Positions 5,294-55,117 of a stretch of 64,000 bases of DNA are shown here, one piece after another (position 1 is the first letter of the stretch; each line of letters begins with the position of its first letter). Under the pieces are notes generated by a model. The model saw only the letters and a list, made by a program, of their open reading frames with translations, did no database searches and was not told where the DNA came from. Made by a program: the position numbers and the translations under genes. Origin of the DNA: a virus. The DNA lies in IMG/VR virus record IMGVR_UViG_3300020447_000001, positions 32,001 through 96,000 of that record, one strand, 5' to 3'.

Positions 5294-7393
5294 GTGGCTA
5301 CATCCACCGAATGCCCACAAGGCAACCAAACTCCTGTATTTGACATTGAAAAATGTCAAGTTCCGTGCATATTCCCTATTCCCGACGGGACATGGGGTAA
5401 TTTCTGGTTGCCGCAAGGACCTGAGCCTATATTTGACTTTGAAGATCCTGTTCAAATTCCACTAGCGCCGGATATTCCATGTCCTGTGTTTACCGTGGGT
5501 TCCCAAGCTGATGTTTTAGTAAGGGAAGTTACGTTTGTATGCGCAGACGGCGCACAAGGTGCTCAAGTAGCGGGAAAGCTTGAAGTTACACTTACCAAAG
5601 AAGATTGTTGTGCTTTTGACCTAGATTTTGATTTAGAGATACCGTGCCCGGTACTTTTGCCGCAAGTCACAGTTAGTTCGACCACATCGCCCTATCCCAC
5701 GGCTTCGAGTGGATCAGCGGCATCGACTTGGGCTTCTCTTACAATTTTAAGTTGCGGTAGCGGTGGCGCTCAAGAGCAACAAGAGATGAGCGGTTGTGCG
5801 TTCGACTTGGGGCTAGAAATAAATTTCCCGTGCCCATCTATTTCTGGTAGTGGTGCGGGCTCAACAGAAATAGTAGAGGTCGGCGAAGAATCAGCAACAT
5901 TACTTGTTACCAAAGAAGACGAATGTACGCTTGATTTTAATTTAGACATTAAATTTCCGTGCCCCACAATCGCCCTTACCCCGACATCTTCAACAACGGC
6001 TGGTTATCCTGGCGTATTTACCATTGAAGAGGGGGCAGGTAATAACCCAGCCAATTGTGAGTTTGAGTTTGACTTAGAAATTAAATTTCCATGTCCCGCG
6101 ATAACTAAAGGGTCACAAACTAAAAGTGTTGTTGAGATTGGAAGTGAATCTGCCAACCTTGGCATTTCTAAGGGCGGTAGCTGCGACTTCACCTTCACGC
6201 TCGACATTAAATTTCCATGCCCGAAAATTCAAGTTACTCCGGGCGCTGGCGGCACTGGGGGAACAACGTGGCCGATAGTACCTGCTACACAGAGAAAGGC
6301 ATTGCTCACAGTCTCAAAAGGGGATTTTGGAACTGATTGCGACTTCAATTTCGCGCTCGATATAAAATTTCCCTGCCCTAAAATCGATACGTCGGCAGCA
6401 TCTAACAACGCGAAATGGTCTACGGGGGCCGGTAAAGCTGAAATTACGATGCCAGACGAGGGTGAAGGCGACGAAGATTGTGCGTTTGACATGGAATACG
6501 ATATTCAATTTCCATGTCCCACCTTTGAGAAGCATATAGTCACCGTCCTCCCCAATCCGGAAGAGGGACCACCTACTGCCTACATTCAGTTCTCTCGGCA
6601 ATCCACATCTACAAAATGTGAATACGGCTTTACATTTTACATTAAATTTCCTGTTGTGGGACCACAGGGACCAACTGGACCAGCCGGTCCACAGGAGGGA
6701 GCTACCGGATTTACAGGCTACACCGGATTTACTGGGTATACCGGATTTACTGGATATACCGGATATACCGGATTTACTGGATATACTGGATATACTGGAT
6801 ATACAGGCTACACCGGATTTACTGGAGCTACCGGACCAACTGGATATACCGGATTTACTGGATTTACTGGATTTACTGGATTTACTGGATATACCGGATA
6901 TACCGGATTTACTGGATATACTGGAAAGACTGGATATACCGGATTTACTGGAGCTACCGGACCAACTGGATATACCGGATTTACTGGATTTACTGGAGCT
7001 ACCGGACCAACTGGATATACCGGATTTACTGGATTTACTGGAAAGACTGGGCCTACTGGACCAACTGGATATACCGGATTTACTGGATTTACTGGATTTA
7101 CTGGATTTACTGGAAAGACTGGGCCTACTGGACCTACTGGGTTTACTGGATTTACTGGGTTTACTGGAGCTACTGGGTTTACTGGATTTACTGGGTTTAC
7201 TGGAGCTACCGGACCTACTGGAGCTACTGGATTTACTGGATTTACCGGGTTTACTGGAGCGACAGGCGGTGACGGCGGCTATGACTGCGTCGCAGTTATG
7301 AATTGTATCAGTAATGGTGAAACCGGACCTGCGGTTTTATATTTGGATATCAATGGTAATATCTCTTGGAAGTCTGTCTCCGCATGCCCCTAA
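5294..7393 (+). CDS. Collagen-like tail fibre protein with N-terminal C-x-F-x-F-x-L-x-I-x-F-P-C-P repeats
   Basis: About 8 copies of the FPCP motif in the N-terminal half, then about 200 aa of Gly-X-Thr triplets. Confidence 0.85.
6659..7268 (+). repeat. Coding tandem 9-nt repeats (ggatttact / ggatatacc) encoding collagen-like G-F/Y/A/P-T
   Basis: Directly visible tandem repeats. Confidence 0.95.
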
Positions 7394-37760: not shown

Positions 37761-38123
37761 ATGGTACAGCGATTTGGGCCTAGTAAACGCAGGACACGGA
37801 AACCACCGGAAAACGAATGGCTCCAGTTTATGTCGACGAGTGAAAAAGAGACTCTAAGGCAAAAAGAATGGTTAGATACATCTCTAGCGGATACTGGTTT
37901 ACCGGTTCGTGTGGTAAATTGCCTGGAGGAGGCCGGAATTCTTACTGTGGAGGACTTGACGAAACAAACCGCAGATGCGTTACTACGTATTACCAATTTT
38001 GGCGAGCAAACATTGGGACAATGTACTCGCCTGCTGGCAAAACTTAATCTTCCGCATTGCTTGCAGGAAGAGGCACATGAAGACCCCGGTAGGTGTATTA
38101 ACCTTAAGTCTCCTTCCAGGTGA
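37761..38123 (+). CDS. Stand-alone RNA polymerase alpha C-terminal domain protein
   Basis: SLADTGLPVRVVNCLEEAGILTVEDL...LLRITNFGEQTL matches the alpha-CTD pattern (LSVR..NCL....I.T..DL...NFG.KSL). Confidence 0.85.
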   Translation: MVQRFGPSKRRTRKPPENEWLQFMSTSEKETLRQKEWLDTSLADTGLPVRVVNCLEEAGILTVEDLTKQTADALLRITNFGEQTLGQCTRLLAKLNLPHCLQEEAHEDPGRCINLKSPSR

Positions 38124-38161
38124 CCTACCGGGGTCGCTTTAAATCAATTCAATTACTTCGT

Positions 38162-38191
38162 AGCCTGGAGTCGATACTCCGGGCTTTTTTT
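38162..38191 (+). terminator. Terminator upstream of the RAMP-like gene
   Basis: agcctggagt-cgat-actccgggct tttttt. Confidence 0.8.
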
Positions 38192-38211
38192 ATGCGCAAA
38201 GGAAAAACAAC

Positions 38212-39036
38212 ATGGCTACAATTACTAAAGCAAAAATAGCAAAGAACGGAAAAGTATCGACAGCAAAGAAGGCAACTTCACAGAGAAAGGATCCTTTTGA
38301 AAAGACGCGTATTGTAATACCGGCAATGAAGAAGGCGATCTACAGGGCTACCCTATATGGAAAAACGGATCTGATCGTACATGCTTTAGGCACGAAGGCA
38401 AAAAAGAAGTTGTTGGACTCAATGGGGCCGAAGAACGCTGCGTCGAAAGTGCGACCTGCTAAAGATCCCGCCGCTGAGTATTTTGACAGCATGTACATCC
38501 TTAACAACAAGTACGACTTTGTGACTGGAGAATACTCCAATCCTCACATGAAAGATCAGCCGTACACGGGCGACATCGACGCAGATTATGAGACTATTAT
38601 GCGTCCCATCCGGTACGAAGATTGCACGGCTATTCACGGGGTAGCTTGCGCGGGTATCCGAAAGGGCATGGTTCGTGCGGCAAAGTCGTGCGGGGCCGTT
38701 ATGACAGATACCAACTGTAATATACGGGTAGAAAGTCCTTATGGGAACGAGCTTGCCATTAAATTTGAAACTCTTGTTTCTGGGGAAGTCCCGGTTAAAG
38801 TCGGTAAAAACCAAACGGACTTGCGATATCGTCCTCACTATTCAAACTGGAGCATAGATATTGCGATTACTCACCAGTCTGAGATTATCGGGCCGGAAGA
38901 ATTGACACAACTCCTTCGAAATGCCGGGGAATTTGTCGGCCTGTCAGAATGGAGAAACGAGAAGGGCGGTCAATACGGCGCGTACGAAGTAGACCTCAAC
39001 AGTATTCAATACGAGCTAACTAAAGACAACAAGTAG
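38212..39036 (+). CDS. Cas7/RAMP-like RNA-binding protein, putative effector of the downstream GGY-NN array
   Basis: N-terminal strand RATLYGKTDLIVH; IRKGMVRAA helix; thumb-like VKVGKNQTDLRYRP; C-terminal Gly-rich loop LLRNAGEFVGLSEWRNEKGGQYGAYEV. Confidence 0.7.
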   Translation: MATITKAKIAKNGKVSTAKKATSQRKDPFEKTRIVIPAMKKAIYRATLYGKTDLIVHALGTKAKKKLLDSMGPKNAASKVRPAKDPAAEYFDSMYILNNKYDFVTGEYSNPHMKDQPYTGDIDADYETIMRPIRYEDCTAIHGVACAGIRKGMVRAAKSCGAVMTDTNCNIRVESPYGNELAIKFETLVSGEVPVKVGKNQTDLRYRPHYSNWSIDIAITHQSEIIGPEELTQLLRNAGEFVGLSEWRNEKGGQYGAYEVDLNSIQYELTKDNK

Positions 39037-39055
39037 ATAATTCTGTTTTCGTTAT

Positions 39056-39087
39056 AAGCCCCTAGCCTCCGGGCTAGGGGCTTTTTT
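39056..39087 (+). terminator. Hairpin between the RAMP-like gene and its partner
   Basis: aagcccctagcc-tcc-gggctaggggctt tttt, then aaggag. Confidence 0.8.
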
Positions 39088-39100
39088 AAAAGGAGAACTC

Positions 39101-39625
39101 ATGGAAGCTGCAATTAATTTTGAGTATCAAGCGAAGAAGGGTCGTCCGTTATCAGATGCGGTAGCCGAATTGGTGGGTCCTGAAATTCGATCGCTTAGCC
39201 AAGAGACAGGGGAGGAAGTCACCCCTGTCGAGTATTTAAACTGGGTAGCTACTCATCCACATAGTGAAAGTCACGCTTTGTTTGAGTGGGACGACACAGA
39301 AGCAGCGAAGAAATATCGTCTGCACCAAGCACGAAACATTATCAACTCGATTGAGATTAAGATAATTGATCATCGTGGAGATGAAACTTTTGTCCCTGCT
39401 TGGCTAAACATAAAGGTACAAAACGACGAAGAGGAATCTCCTCGTCAAGTCTACACTTCGTTTGAAAGTGTCGTAAATGATAATGAAAAAAGTCAAATAG
39501 TGGTGGCACAAGCGAGAAAAGAGTTTATTTCCTGGCGACGACGTTATTTGTTGTTTAGGAATGAGTTACCTCTAGCCGCTATTTTTGAGGCTACTGATGA
39601 GCTTGAGCTAGAAGAAGAAGGTTGA
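39101..39625 (+). CDS. Partner protein of the RAMP-like gene
   Basis: VTP...HPHSESHALFEWDDTEAAKKYRLHQARNIINSI motif; ends 13 nt before the array. Confidence 0.7.
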   Translation: MEAAINFEYQAKKGRPLSDAVAELVGPEIRSLSQETGEEVTPVEYLNWVATHPHSESHALFEWDDTEAAKKYRLHQARNIINSIEIKIIDHRGDETFVPAWLNIKVQNDEEESPRQVYTSFESVVNDNEKSQIVVAQARKEFISWRRRYLLFRNELPLAAIFEATDELELEEEG

Positions 39626-39638
39626 CACCTTAAAACAA

Positions 39639-40433
39639 GGCGAGGTACGGCTAGGCTAGGTACGTCATGTTCAGGTGGGGCGAGGCAGTCGTGGCTGGTT
39701 CGGGCGAGGCAGAGGCGTGGACTGGATGGGCAGTCGGGGCGAGGTCGGGCAAGGCAGCGTGGGGTCTGGTAGGGCAGGGCAGTCATGTCACGGACGGGCG
39801 AGGCAAGTCCGGGGCGGGCAAGGCCTGGCAGTCAAGTCAGGGTTTGGTCTGGAACGGCTAGGCTAGGCTGGGTCGGGCGTGGTTTGGCAGTCAGGGCGAG
39901 GCGAGGTCCGGTTTGGTGCGGAATGGTGGGATATGTAATGGCTGGTCGTGGCTGGTTCTGGCAGTCGGGGCTTGGTGGGGTACGGTAAGGTTTGGTTGGG
40001 TATGGTCTGACTTGGCAGTCTCGGCGAGGTCGGGCTAGGCTAGGCTAGGCTGGGTCGGGCATGGTGAGGCAGTCATGGCAAGTTCAGACTTGGCTAGGTA
40101 GGGCGGGCTCGGGCACGGCAGTCACGGCTAGTTCGGGAGTGACAAGGCGGGTTCAGGTCAGGTACGGCAAGGCAGTCAAGGCGGGGAAAGGCTGGGCTAG
40201 GCTGGGTGGGGTCTGGACAGGCAGTCACGGTGAGGTCTGTTGCGGTGAGTCGGGTACTGGTAAGGACGGGTTCGGCAGGCATGGTCGGGCAGCGTAGCTC
40301 ATGGCGAGGCCAGGCGAGGCCAGGCACGGCAGTCAAGGCGATGTGGGGTGTGGCTTGGCTAGGTAGGGCTTGGACAGTCGAGGCAGTCTAGTCATGACAA
40401 GGCTAGGTGTGGCGGGGTGCAGGTAAGGCAGTC
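39639..40433 (+). ncRNA. Array of 15 units of (GGY-NN)n pentamers separated by GGCAGTC; putative multi-guide RNA
   Basis: GGCAGTC at 39684, 39729, 39778, 39827, 39886, 39960, 40014, 40068, 40117, 40171, 40220, (GGCAGGC 40274), 40328, 40382, 40427; 12 of 14 spacings are 5n+4. Confidence 0.85.
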
Positions 40434-40446
40434 ACGTCCAGCTATG

Positions 40447-40486
40447 AACACCGCAAGTGCTACCATGCGCTTGCGGTGTTTTTTTT
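40447..40486 (+). terminator. Rho-independent terminator closing the array
   Basis: aacaccgcaagtgc-taccat-gcgcttgcggtgtt tttttt. Confidence 0.9.
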
Positions 40487-40560
40487 CTCTGGTACAAACC
40501 CTGGTACTTTTTTAGGGGGGACAAAAAGGGAGTCATATATTAGCCGATTAGACCGCAACT

Positions 40561-40782
40561 GCGCCGCAGCTAATTACCGGGGTTTGTACTAGCGCCGCAG
40601 CTAGGACGCAGCTGAGGACGCACTTGGGACGCACTTGTAATGCACTTGGAACGCACACTCCAGTGCACATTTTCTGCATATTTTCTGCACATTTTCTGCA
40701 TACTGGAGTGCACATTTTCTGCACAATGGGCTGAGGACGCACTTGGGACGCACACTGGAGTGCACATTTTCTGCACAATGGG
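40561..40782. repeat. Iteron-like direct/inverted repeat cluster
   Basis: ATTTTCTGCA x5; 24-mer at 40611 and 40730; 29-mer at 40702 and 40754; gcgccgcagcta x2; actccagt/actggagt inverted. Confidence 0.85.
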
Positions 40783-40799
40783 GGGTAAAAAACTAAAGT

Positions 40800-40847
40800 T
40801 TTACCTCCTACAATAACTTAACGCGTCCCTTATACTACGTATAAGAA
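40800..40847. repeat. 48-bp inverted repeat, left arm
   Basis: tttacctcctacaataacttaacgcgtcccttatactacgtataagaa is the exact reverse complement of 41751-41798. Confidence 0.9.
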
Positions 40848-40855
40848 AGGCGAGC

Positions 40856-41614
40856 ATGATTAAACGAATTCCACTGGGGCTGCAAGACATACTGACCCGA
40901 ATCGAAGATCCGTCGGACGCATTCACATTTAGTCGTTGGGGTGATGGCGAATGGCAAGCGATTGCAGGGGCGAGAAGCCGTAGTAATCGAGACGGGCACA
41001 GGTATTTCCCAGAAATGGGCAAAGAACTACGCCAAATCTTGCTGGAACAGCCAGATTACGTTATGGGCATGCAGGGATTAGCCCTGCGGGTCATGGGAGA
41101 CAAAATTAACACGCAAGTTAAAGCCGCAGGCCTAGATTACGTCGATTGGGTAGATTCGGATGTATTTCACCAAGCTGCTTTAAACGGACATCTCTATTGC
41201 GTTGTAAACGCAGTAAATACACGAAAGGTGTTGCTGGTTGGTCCACCCCATCTAAGGAAGGTCAATACAAATACAAATTTACCCCTACATTATTGGGAAT
41301 TTGTAGAGGTCTCGCCAAAGAATGCTTATCTGGATATAGAGCGCGTAATAGGGGATATAGAGCAAATTTTAGCAGAATACAAAGGAAAAGAGCCTTTGTG
41401 TATCTCAGTAAGTGCCAGCTTACCTGCGGGTATTATTCTTCACAGAATATACCCATTAACCAAGGGGCGACACACTGTAATAGACTTCGGATGTTTGTGG
41501 GATCCGTTAGCTGGTGTAATTACAGCGGGATATCACAAGGAGCAAGGTATTAAAGCTATTGTGGAAGCTAGAAGTACAGAACCTTACATCACGGAAGTAA
41601 GTGAAGAACAGTAA
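40856..41614 (+). CDS. GT-D fold (DUF1792-like) glycosyltransferase-domain protein
   Basis: FTFSRWGDGEW motif; KVLLVG; VIDFGCLWDPLAG. Confidence 0.65.
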   Translation: MIKRIPLGLQDILTRIEDPSDAFTFSRWGDGEWQAIAGARSRSNRDGHRYFPEMGKELRQILLEQPDYVMGMQGLALRVMGDKINTQVKAAGLDYVDWVDSDVFHQAALNGHLYCVVNAVNTRKVLLVGPPHLRKVNTNTNLPLHYWEFVEVSPKNAYLDIERVIGDIEQILAEYKGKEPLCISVSASLPAGIILHRIYPLTKGRHTVIDFGCLWDPLAGVITAGYHKEQGIKAIVEARSTEPYITEVSEEQ

Positions 41615-54583: not shown

Positions 54584-55117
54584 ATGCGAGAGCTTACTAT
54601 TAGGATTAGGTTTTTGACCCCTTCATTAGGGAATCAAAAAGTAAATGACGGCTCAGGGAAGTTTGTGTTTCAACGTAGCCCTGATAACAACATTATTTTT
54701 TTAGCTAGCTGGCACCATTCTAATATGCGAATGGCGGCACAACTTTTAAATCGTTTTCAGTCAGACGTTGTTTCTATTCACTGGGATATACACATTGACG
54801 GGAAGTTGAAAAACAATAAATGGCATAAAAACTATTATAGAGCGGCAAAGAATAATCGGTTGAGATATTCTCTTCACGAGTCTTTTCTTGAAAATCAGAT
54901 TATAGGTATTAATTGTTTAGTACCTAACGCTATTTCAGACGAGGATTTTTGGCGTCTAATGAGTAAGGCAGGACAATACAAAGGATTAAGTCCTTGGAAG
55001 CCCGGAGAGTTCGGGTTTTACGATGTTGTTTCTATTCGTCCACGCAGAGTGCATCGAGGGCCTGAGGACGTAGCTGAGCTGGAGGAGTATCCTCCTCCAG
55101 GGGCGTGGCCTGAGTAA
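54584..55117 (+). CDS. Second RAMP/Cas7-like protein
   Basis: LTIRIRFLTPSLG first strand; C-terminal ISDEDFWRLMSKAGQYKGLSPWKPGEFGFYDV aligns by eye with the 38212 protein. Confidence 0.55.
   Translation: MRELTIRIRFLTPSLGNQKVNDGSGKFVFQRSPDNNIIFLASWHHSNMRMAAQLLNRFQSDVVSIHWDIHIDGKLKNNKWHKNYYRAAKNNRLRYSLHESFLENQIIGINCLVPNAISDEDFWRLMSKAGQYKGLSPWKPGEFGFYDVVSIRPRRVHRGPEDVAELEEYPPPGAWPE

What the first reader, a model, noticed from the sequence alone, without database searches (positions are those of the whole stretch)
38212..40486. Candidate phage RNA-guided system: Cas7/RAMP-like gene + partner gene + GGY-NN pentamer array + terminator
Seen: a 274-aa protein with a RAMP-type first beta strand and C-terminal Gly-rich loop (AGEFVGLSEWRNEKGGQYG). 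It is followed by a 174-aa partner, then ~800 nt of non-coding G-rich repeats starting 13 nt after the partner's stop codon, and a strong terminator at 40447-40486. No cas1, cas2 or cas3 and no CRISPR repeat-spacer array occur in the window. Established: RAMP/Cas7 proteins polymerise along guide RNA with a fixed nucleotide periodicity. Inference: each protomer binds an invariant GGY and presents the variable NN, so each unit is a guide that reads a target through dinucleotides rather than contiguous pairing. It could act against competing phages or host genes, and with no nuclease in the locus it may work by repression. I recall a similar architecture being reported recently under the name VIPR; that is recollection and must be verified.
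Basis: partly seen in the sequence, partly recalled or inferred. Interest (0 to 1): 0.96.

Follow-up and report, generated by a model that had tools for sequence, protein, structure and literature searches.

The report
Phage VIPR RNA-guided silencing locus
This marine phage carries a VIPR system, a kind of RNA-guided gene silencer first described in 2026, and one of its roughly 16 guides spells out the first codons of the bacterial gene queE, hinting that the phage may silence a host gene.

Summary
VIPR systems are described in 2026 bioRxiv preprints (10.64898/2026.04.26.720920 and .720927, and 10.64898/2026.10.15.759431).

- **Accessory gene.** The 174-aa gene belongs to a family of unknown fold that recurs next to Vipr genes.
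- **Array.** Positions 39636-40432 hold about 16 guide units of the form C-NN-GG(Y-NN-GG)n-CAGT. Unit length is 5n+4. The YNNGG grammar occurs nowhere else in the 116-kb phage contig.
- **Conservation.** Related marine phages and dozens of IMG/VR contigs have the same compact array. SUSP1 differs, with 40-nt tails.
- **New lead.** The first guide is conserved in related phages with 67-90% identical Vipr. Read by the published 1-nt-skip rule, it matches codons ~5-14 of bacterial queE (KE[I/T]YYTIQGE) 20/20. It gave at least 120 exact hits in bacterial genomes against about 2 expected, and none in queE of viral contigs.
- **Not found.** Targets of the other guides were not found.

Verdict: a new member of a known kind. 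Expression, RNA processing and repression are inferred, not shown.

The parts
38162..38185 (+). Terminator-like hairpin that closes the upstream gene, so the vipr unit starts after it
   Evidence: 10-pair stem followed by a T-run.
38212..39036 (+). vipr: a 274-aa Vipr-family RAMP. It has a Lys-rich N-terminal tail (residues 1-38), beta1 with H57, a thumb hairpin at about 187-211 with R205 and R207, and a G-loop at 243-256 with E246-W247-R248.
39064..39082 (+). Short terminator-like hairpin between vipr and vap (weak: 6 pairs)
   Evidence: A hairpin at the same place is visible in L001.
39101..39625 (+). vap: a 174-aa accessory protein of unknown fold with a conserved FEWDDTEAA..YRLHQARNI core
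   Evidence: No Pfam, NCBIfam or PADLOC match. Matches phrog_15946. 19 homologues. A homologue lies near the array signature in 28 of 71 IMG/VR stretches. Not similar to the gene downstream of SUSP1 vipr.
39636..39689 (+). vrRNA unit 1: 10 pentamers plus CAGT. NN string is AA GA AC TA TA AC AT CA GG GA. This is the candidate queE guide.
   Evidence: The same NN string (AC or AT at dinucleotide 3) is kept in L003, L004/L005 and L008 while GGY positions drift. Target match.
39690..39734 (+). Unit 2 (45 nt), irregular: the register slips inside the unit
39735..40225 (+). Units 3-11, all canonical (49, 49, 59, 74, 54, 54, 49, 54 and 49 nt, each 5n+4). Boundaries are at 39783, 39832, 39891, 39965, 40019, 40073, 40122 and 40176.
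   Evidence: All NN strings differ.
40226..40333 (+). Two 54-nt units. The first ends in CAGG instead of CAGT (about 40279).
   Evidence: read directly. The CAGG delimiter is the one used in Gordonia phage Ecliptus.
40334..40432 (+). Three degenerate terminal units (45, 9 and 45 nt)
40446..40491 (+). Intrinsic terminator that ends the vap-array transcript
   Evidence: 15-pair stem with 8 GC pairs, then a T-run. The same hairpin follows the arrays of L003 and L004.

Best explanation
This is a phage-encoded VIPR (Viral Interference Programmable Repeat) system with the layout vipr - vap - compact vrRNA array - terminator.

**Proposed mechanism**
- vap and the array are transcribed together and stop at 40446-40491.
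- Vipr protomers each clamp one GGY, using H57, R207 and E246-W247-R248, and polymerise along a unit.
- This exposes the NN dinucleotides, which pair with one strand of double-stranded DNA in an NN-x register (one skipped base). The bound complex blocks transcription.
- Units are separated by only 4 nt (CAGT). That shifts the 5-nt register by -1, so each filament ends at the unit boundary. CAGT probably also marks a processing site.
- About 16 guides are encoded.
- The first guide, conserved in related phages, reads K-E-T/I-Y-Y-T-I-Q-G-E. These are codons ~5-14 of bacterial queE (7-carboxy-7-deazaguanine synthase, Cx14CxxC class). One likely job of the system is therefore to silence host queE just downstream of its start codon.

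**Shown here:** homology, fold, conserved contact residues, array grammar, conservation of the architecture, and the in-silico target match.

**Inferred:** transcription, processing, ribonucleoprotein formation, DNA binding, repression, and any benefit to the phage.
For: **Family membership**
- match to the solved SUSP1 Vipr, E 2e-6 (single sequence) and E 1e-13 (profile).
-, with paper .720927: SUSP1 H17, R138, D177, W178 and R179 align to H57, R207, E246, W247 and R248. All but H57 are invariant within the clade; H57 is replaced by N in three members. R207 is invariant and R248 nearly so across 124 family members.

**Array**
-.

**Conservation**
- The same vipr-vap-array layout with GGCAGTC punctuation is found in L001 (55% identity), L003 and L004 (90%) and L008 (67%).
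- 71 IMG/VR stretches carry the signature. Of these, 40 have a Vipr homologue and 28 a vap homologue.

**Context**
- Viral: terminase, tail fibre and DNA polymerase are present.
- No Cas1 or Cas2.
- No self-target, as the paper reports for its systems.

**queE target**
- 118 of 120 hits lie in the same frame and at the same site of a ~205-aa ORF, 4-5 codons after its start in 98 of the 120.
- The ORF is TIGR04508 queE, 307-336 bits against a cut-off of 240, in a queC-queE-queD-queF operon.
- 17 of 301 genomes of one phylum match with at most 1 mismatch, against 0 of 301 for the reversed pattern.
- The AC/AT difference between the window's guide and the relatives' guide matches the natural T/I variants of the QueE motif.
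Against: - There is no expression, processing or binding data for this locus or for this array type.
- The 1-nt-skip rule was established on type II (SUSP1 and P. fulva) systems. It is assumed here.
- The vap has no recognisable DNA-binding or other domain.
- Only one of about 16 guides has a candidate target. Three other guides gave nothing better than 3-mismatch, chance-level hits in five candidate genomes. Two gave no exact hit in IMG/VR.
- Cross-matches among related phage fragments equal the shuffled controls.
- The queE guide contains two GT-ended pentamers (TACGT, CATGT), which might bind Vipr poorly.
- The host is unknown, so it is unproven that the host's queE carries the matching sequence.
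- The skip-rule comparison on the queE loci is circular, because those loci were selected with the 1-nt-skip pattern.
Confidence: 0.9

Rival explanations
1. It is a genuine VIPR system, but the queE match is a coincidence or a decoy. The real targets of all guides, unit 1 included, would then be competing phages, satellites or prophages absent from the databases, as in the published SUSP1 and P. fulva cases.
For: - Published natural targets are mobile elements. Host hits in that work are decoy REP sites.
- No other guide here hits the candidate host genomes.
- A codon-periodic pattern that happens to equal a conserved peptide automatically collects many hits, so the count of 120 overstates the number of independent events.
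Against: - The NN string is conserved across phages whose Vipr is only 67% identical, while the flanking GGY positions drift.
- The match is 20/20 over exactly the ten variable dinucleotides.
- It lies 4-5 codons from the start codon in most hits, which is a promoter-proximal site.
- The reversed-pattern control gives 0 of 301.
- No queE of viral origin matches. The 10-NN pattern gave 0 hits in IMG/VR, and the 9-NN pattern gave one chance hit that is not queE.
Confidence: 0.3
2. The target of unit 1 is a queE copy carried by a competing phage or other mobile element as part of a 7-deazaguanine DNA-modification cluster. The host's housekeeping queE would not be the target.
For: - From established knowledge, many phages carry queC/D/E, folE and dpdA clusters to hypermodify their DNA.
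- VIPR is described as a weapon between phages.
Against: - There are no exact hits among 2.9 million viral contigs. Relaxing the pattern to nine dinucleotides gives only a non-coding chance hit.
- The exact hit examined in detail lies in a chromosomal queC-queE-queD-queF operon that includes queF, which belongs to the tRNA-queuosine branch.
Confidence: 0.1
3. The G-rich array is not a guide array. It could be a G-quadruplex-prone or recombinogenic repeat, or a degenerate Gly-rich coding region that merely sits beside a RAMP-like gene.
For: - GG every 5 nt fits a two-tetrad G4 motif.
- Short ORFs of up to 80 aa overlap the array.
Against: - A 5-nt period cannot be a coding period.
- The ORFs are short and occur on both strands.
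- The grammar (Y 93%, NN at maximal entropy, GG) is exactly that of vrRNAs.
- It co-occurs with Vipr homologues in many unrelated viral contigs.
- Vipr keeps the residues that read GGY.
Confidence: 0.02

Closest known systems
Type II VIPR of Escherichia phage SUSP1 (Vipr, vap1, vrRNAs; PDB 36pp; bioRxiv 10.64898/2026.04.26.720920 and .720927)
   Same: - Homologous Vipr protein with the same GGY-contact residues.
- YNNGG repeats with hypervariable NN.
- Two-gene locus in a phage.
- No cas genes and no CRISPR array.
- The candidate target aligns the skipped base with the codon wobble position.
   Different: - Vipr here is 274 aa rather than 195 aa. It has a Lys-rich N-terminal tail and an insertion between alpha1 and the second half. 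Identity is detectable only over the C-terminal ~70 residues by BLASTP.
- The accessory gene is unrelated by BLASTP.
- SUSP1 vrRNAs are separate ~100-nt units, each with a ~40-nt structured tail and a spacer. One lies upstream of vipr.
- Here about 16 units are packed head to tail with only CAGT between them, and none lies upstream.
'Staggered' vrRNA arrays mentioned in the VIPR discovery paper (fig. S18 legend)
   Same: [quoted passage not shown] That fits units of 5n+4 nt, in which the register slips by one at every GGCAGTC.
   Different: The figure and the type tables are not held here. I could not confirm that this is the same architecture, or which of the seven types it belongs to.
VIPR-like locus of Gordonia phage Ecliptus (OP820472, gene 19), the nearest Vipr in an isolated phage
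   Same: - Vipr is 25% identical over 93% of its length.
- The compact array lies directly downstream, with a 4-nt delimiter between runs of YNNGG.
   Different: - The delimiter is CAGG, not CAGT.
- The array is only ~260 nt.
- tblastn found no homologue of the 174-aa vap in any isolated phage.
- The host is an actinobacterium.
Cas7-family RAMPs of class 1 CRISPR-Cas (Csm3, Cmr4, type VII Cas7, Cas7-11)
   Same: - Both polymerise along a guide with a fixed periodicity.
   Different: - No CRISPR repeats, adaptation genes or partner Cas proteins.
- The period is 5 nt with two presented bases, rather than 6 nt with five.
- Sequence identity is 8-14%.

Membership tests
VIPR system | Vipr protein: a single-RRM RAMP with a thumb and a glycine-rich loop, homologous to described Vipr proteins | tested here: met
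   [not shown]
VIPR system | Residues that read GGY (SUSP1 H17, R138, D177, W178, R179) | tested here: met
   They align to H57, R207, E246 (a D-to-E change), W247 and R248. R207, E246, W247 and R248 are invariant in the clade. H57 is N in three clade members.
VIPR system | Adjacent non-coding array of at least 4 tandem YNNGG units with conserved GGY and hypervariable NN | tested here: met
   There are 59 distinct NN strings among 61 canonical units from five related arrays.
VIPR system | Minimal locus with an accessory vap gene, and no CRISPR array or adaptation genes | tested here: met
   The adjacent 174-aa gene recurs with Vipr and arrays. No Cas1 or Cas2. No CRISPR-like repeats. Which of vap1-6 it corresponds to could not be checked.
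VIPR system | Viral or proviral context | tested here: met
   Terminase, tail fibre, DNA polymerase and SbcC are present. G000 is a virus record. Relatives lie in IMG/VR and marine metagenomes.
VIPR system | vrRNAs are expressed and co-purify with Vipr | not testable with these tools
   Needs small-RNA sequencing and a pull-down.
VIPR system | Targets are read with the 1-nt-skip (NN-x) code | tested here: inconclusive
   Unit 1 matches queE 20/20 under this rule. However, the collection scan was run only with this rule, so the comparison with skips of 0, 2 and 3 is circular. The other guides have no target.
Type II VIPR (SUSP1 / P. fulva clade) | vrRNA of 9-16 repeats capped by a ~40-nt conserved structured 3' tail; vap1 | tested here: not met
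   Units are separated by only 4 nt, whereas SUSP1 has tails. The vap is unrelated to the SUSP1 neighbouring gene.
Hammerhead-interspersed VIPR arrays | Ribozymes between vrRNAs | tested here: not met
   An Rfam scan of 37900-40900 at E up to 1 finds no ribozyme. There is no room for one between units.
Class 1 CRISPR-Cas (type III-like) | Cas7 RAMP together with a CRISPR repeat-spacer array and other cas genes | tested here: not met
   The fold is shared, but there are no repeats and no Cas1 or Cas2.

The most novel reading that the evidence does not exclude
A phage uses a VIPR guide to switch off a host metabolic gene rather than a rival mobile element. The guide's codon-periodic reading targets the invariant N-terminal motif of QueE, at the start of the 7-deazaguanine/queuosine pathway. 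Synonymous mutations cannot escape such a guide, and the same guide works across many host lineages. A plausible purpose is to starve co-infecting phages, or host Dpd-type systems, of the preQ0 precursor used for 7-deazaguanine DNA modification, or to alter Q-tRNA decoding. That purpose is speculation.
Probability: 0.5. Interest if true: 0.72.

Novelty: new member of a known kind. Interest (0 to 1): 0.5.

Why it matters
VIPR is a months-old class of RNA-guided DNA binders with a gapped code. Only the E. coli phage and Pseudomonas prophage systems have been tested at the bench. This locus adds three things:

- **A worked example of the compact array form.** It shows 4-nt punctuation and units of 5n+4 nt, with about 16 guides. 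Related marine phages show guide turnover, and a recurrent accessory-protein family of unknown fold sits beside Vipr.
- **A directly testable target.** The conserved first guide matches the start of bacterial queE. If real, it would extend VIPR from conflict between mobile elements to host take-over. It would also show how a codon-periodic guide can be aimed at an invariant protein motif.
- **A possible route to the host.** The same logic could help assign hosts to uncultured phages.

Tried and rejected
**Searches that gave nothing**
- Pfam, NCBIfam and PADLOC give nothing for either protein.
- The first AlphaFold run, on a 13-sequence alignment, was poor (pLDDT 52.8). I replaced it with a 124-sequence run. 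The fold search started on the poor model was never collected.
- For the vap, a profile search of the PDB found nothing. The protein atlas found only unnamed viral clusters. tblastn against isolated phages found nothing.

- Both fold jobs went to Vipr, so the vap was not folded.
- The genome contigs and metagenome-contig scans were capped at one each. The remaining guides could therefore not be scanned there.

**Target searches**
- No self-target in the 116-kb contig.
- No excess over shuffled guides or over other skip rules among related phage fragments.
- Guides from 71 IMG/VR arrays show no excess against the queE loci.
- The other window guides have no hit in the 120 queE loci.
- Units 5 and 8 have no exact hit in IMG/VR.
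- Units 5, 7, 8 and 10 gave nothing better than 3-mismatch, chance-level hits in five candidate host genomes.

**Other checks**
- No queC/D/E/F homologue in the contig. The contig is only about 52% complete.
- Host assignment is not established. The exact window variant of the target occurs in three genomes of the phylum of G001 (Neomarinimicrobiota) and in two Rhodothermales, which is too weak to name a host.
- The alpha-CTD-like upstream gene is syntenic in L001, but absent from the other 71 array loci. I do not count it as part of the system.
Full report
**1. What is there**

- The window lies at 32001-96000 of a single 116,382-bp viral contig. The contig is about 52% complete by CheckV.
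- Almost all genes are on the + strand. They include a large terminase, a collagen-like tail fibre, an SbcC-like protein and a DNA polymerase.
- Relatives of the locus come from TARA and other marine metagenomes.
- The finding's coordinates hold two ORFs, 38212..39036 (274 aa) and 39101..39625 (174 aa). An ~800-nt G-rich tract follows, then a 15-pair terminator at 40446-40481.

**2. The array is real and highly ordered**

- G autocorrelation peaks at lags 5, 10, 15 and 20 (0.45 to 0.30). A greedy parse gives 107 YNNGG pentamers, against 49 on average and 61 at most in shuffles.
- Splitting at GGCAGTC gives units of the form C-NN-GG, then (Y-NN-GG) eight to thirteen times, then CAGT. Their lengths of 49, 54, 59 and 74 nt are all 5n+4.
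- In register, position 1 is a pyrimidine in 93% of pentamers. Positions 2 and 3 carry 1.97 and 1.92 bits, and all 16 dinucleotides occur. Position 4 is G in 99% and position 5 is G in 83%.
- Runs of four or more YNNGG occur nowhere else on either strand of the contig.
- I count about 16 units. Eleven or twelve are canonical. One uses CAGG as its delimiter. The last three are degenerate.
- Rfam finds no ribozyme or other family in the array.

**3. The protein is a Vipr**

- VIPR systems were described in 2026 preprints. They comprise a minimal RAMP (Vipr), an accessory vap gene and vrRNAs made of YNNGG repeats. The NN dinucleotides read double-stranded DNA with one base skipped, which leads to transcriptional silencing. 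Seven types are reported, mostly in phages.
- The 274-aa protein alone matches the solved 'SUSP1 Vipr protein' (PDB 36pp_D) at E 2e-6.
- A 124-sequence family profile matches that structure at E 1e-13 over chain residues 5-191.
- The structure paper names H17, R138, D177, W178 and R179 as the residues that hold the two guanines and the pyrimidine. They align to H57, R207, E246, W247 and R248 here. The last four are invariant among the 13 clade members.
- With the deep alignment, AlphaFold2 gives pLDDT 91.6 and pTM 0.83.
- The family is large, with 3104 cluster representatives at E up to 1e-3.
- No Cas1 or Cas2 and no CRISPR-like repeat array is present.

**4. The partner gene**

- The 174-aa protein has no Pfam, NCBIfam or PADLOC match.
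- It belongs to phrog_15946.
- It has 19 detectable homologues that share a FEWDDTEAA..YRLHQARNI core.
- It is not similar to the gene downstream of SUSP1 vipr.
- It recurs, however. Among 71 IMG/VR stretches that carry the signature 'GGCAGTC plus five canonical pentamers', 40 encode a Vipr homologue and 28 a homologue of this protein. The usual order is vipr-vap-array.
- I therefore treat it as the vap of this VIPR form. Its fold and role remain unknown.

**5. The architecture is conserved and the guides turn over**

- The same layout and GGCAGTC punctuation occur in four related loci: L001 (Vipr 55% identical, a 78-kb viral contig), L003 and L004/L005 (90%) and L008 (67%, at least 25 units).
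- Unit lengths across these arrays are 39-74 nt, always 5n+4. Fifty-nine of 61 NN strings are distinct.
- Some guides are shared between phages and others are not.
- SUSP1 differs. Each of its vrRNAs has a ~40-nt tail and its own spacer.
- Gordonia phage Ecliptus carries the closest Vipr in an isolated phage. It has the compact form, with CAGG as delimiter.
[quoted passage not shown] That fits a register slip of one at each delimiter. The figure is not held here, so the identification is unconfirmed.
- My inference: after GGC-AG the next expected GG is replaced by TC, and the next GG comes 4 nt later rather than 5. A Vipr filament therefore cannot continue in phase across a boundary. CAGT thus separates guides, and it may also be a cleavage site.

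**6. Targets**

*No self-targets or phage cross-targets*
- Under the published NN-x rule, no guide matches the phage's own contig better than shuffled guides do. This agrees with the paper's own self-targeting control.
- Cross-matches among related phage fragments equal the shuffled and other-skip controls.

*Unit 1 is conserved*
- Unit 1 stands out because its NN string (AA GA AC/AT TA TA AC AT CA GG GA) is kept in the window, L003, L004/L005 and twice in L008. Meanwhile its GGY positions drift.

*Unit 1 matches queE*
- As the pattern AANGANAYNTANTANACNATNCANGGNGA, it has no match in 2.9 million viral contigs.
By my arithmetic about 2 are expected (1.2e12 positions divided by 5.5e11).
- Of the 120, 118 lie in one frame at one site, reading K/N-E-I/T/M-Y-Y-T-I-Q/H-G-E. 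The site is 4-5 codons after the nearest in-frame start in 98 of the 120. The ORFs are about 205 aa.
- The ORF is queE of the Cx14CxxC class (TIGR04508, 307-336 bits against a cut-off of 240). In L020 it sits in a queC-queE-queD-queF operon.
- In 301 genomes of L020's phylum, 17 match with at most one mismatch. None match the reversed pattern.
- The skipped bases are the wobble positions, as the VIPR papers report for natural targets.
- The guide has the sense of the coding strand. It could therefore pair with the template DNA strand but not with the mRNA.
- The window's variant (AC, Thr) and the relatives' variant (AT, Ile) both exist among natural QueE sequences.

*Viral queE is not the target in these databases*
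- Relaxing the pattern to nine dinucleotides finds only one hit in viral contigs. It is non-coding and a chance match.
- In the available data the target is therefore cellular queE, not a phage-borne copy.

*Caveats*
- A pattern that equals a conserved peptide collects many hits at once.
- The skip-rule comparison on these loci is circular.
- The host is unknown.
- Other guides gave nothing in five candidate genomes or in IMG/VR.
- I put the chance that queE is a real target at about one half to two thirds.

**7. Verdict**

- This is a new member of a known, very recently described kind. It has the compact array form and a vap family of unknown fold.
- The possibly new element is a conserved guide aimed at a host metabolic gene. 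That is a computational lead and needs the reporter and expression tests listed above.

Noticed in passing
window 54584-55117 (+): A 177-aa ORF in the replication region has a RAMP-like first strand (LTIRIRFLTPSLG). Its C-terminal stretch, AGQYKGLSPWKPGEFGFYDV, resembles the Vipr G-loop. BLASTP to the 274-aa Vipr gives E 8e-6 over 35 residues, and hhalign to the Vipr profile gives probability 72%. It has no Pfam, PHROG or PDB sequence match, and no array lies beside it. It may be a second, very divergent Vipr-like paralogue.
   Followed up: partly
window 37761-38123 (+): The gene just upstream of vipr encodes a 120-aa protein with an RNA polymerase alpha-subunit C-terminal domain (PF03118, E 1e-13). 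It is syntenic in L001 but absent from the other array-bearing viral loci.
   Followed up: partly
window 40596-40725: Directly after the array terminator lie two runs of 11-nt tandem repeats (GGACGCACTTG-like, then TGCACATTTTC-like, about 5 copies each). The period is one helical turn. They could be protein-binding iterons or a regulatory region.
   Followed up: no
window 6703-7258: A 9-nt repeat with 62 copies lies inside the 535-aa tail-fibre gene (5786-7393). It matches collagen-like tail-fibre PHROGs.
   Followed up: no
L015 3185-3445 (Gordonia phage Ecliptus, OP820472): An unannotated ~260-nt intergenic tract after gene 19 (a Vipr homologue) is a compact YNNGG array with CAGG delimiters. 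This isolated, culturable phage could serve as a bench model for the compact array form.
   Followed up: partly
L178 (IMGVR_UViG_3300044960_000579) and L142, L190, L198, L199: Some IMG/VR contigs carry very large or multiple GGCAGT-punctuated arrays, with up to 15 signature matches and three separate arrays in L178.
   Followed up: no
L003 2167-2274 and L008 6777-6884: In two relatives the queE guide is followed by the same second guide (NN string AG AC GA TT GG/GA AT TC AT GA TA/AA). This is a conserved two-guide block. The target of the second guide was not found, and the window lacks it.
   Followed up: partly
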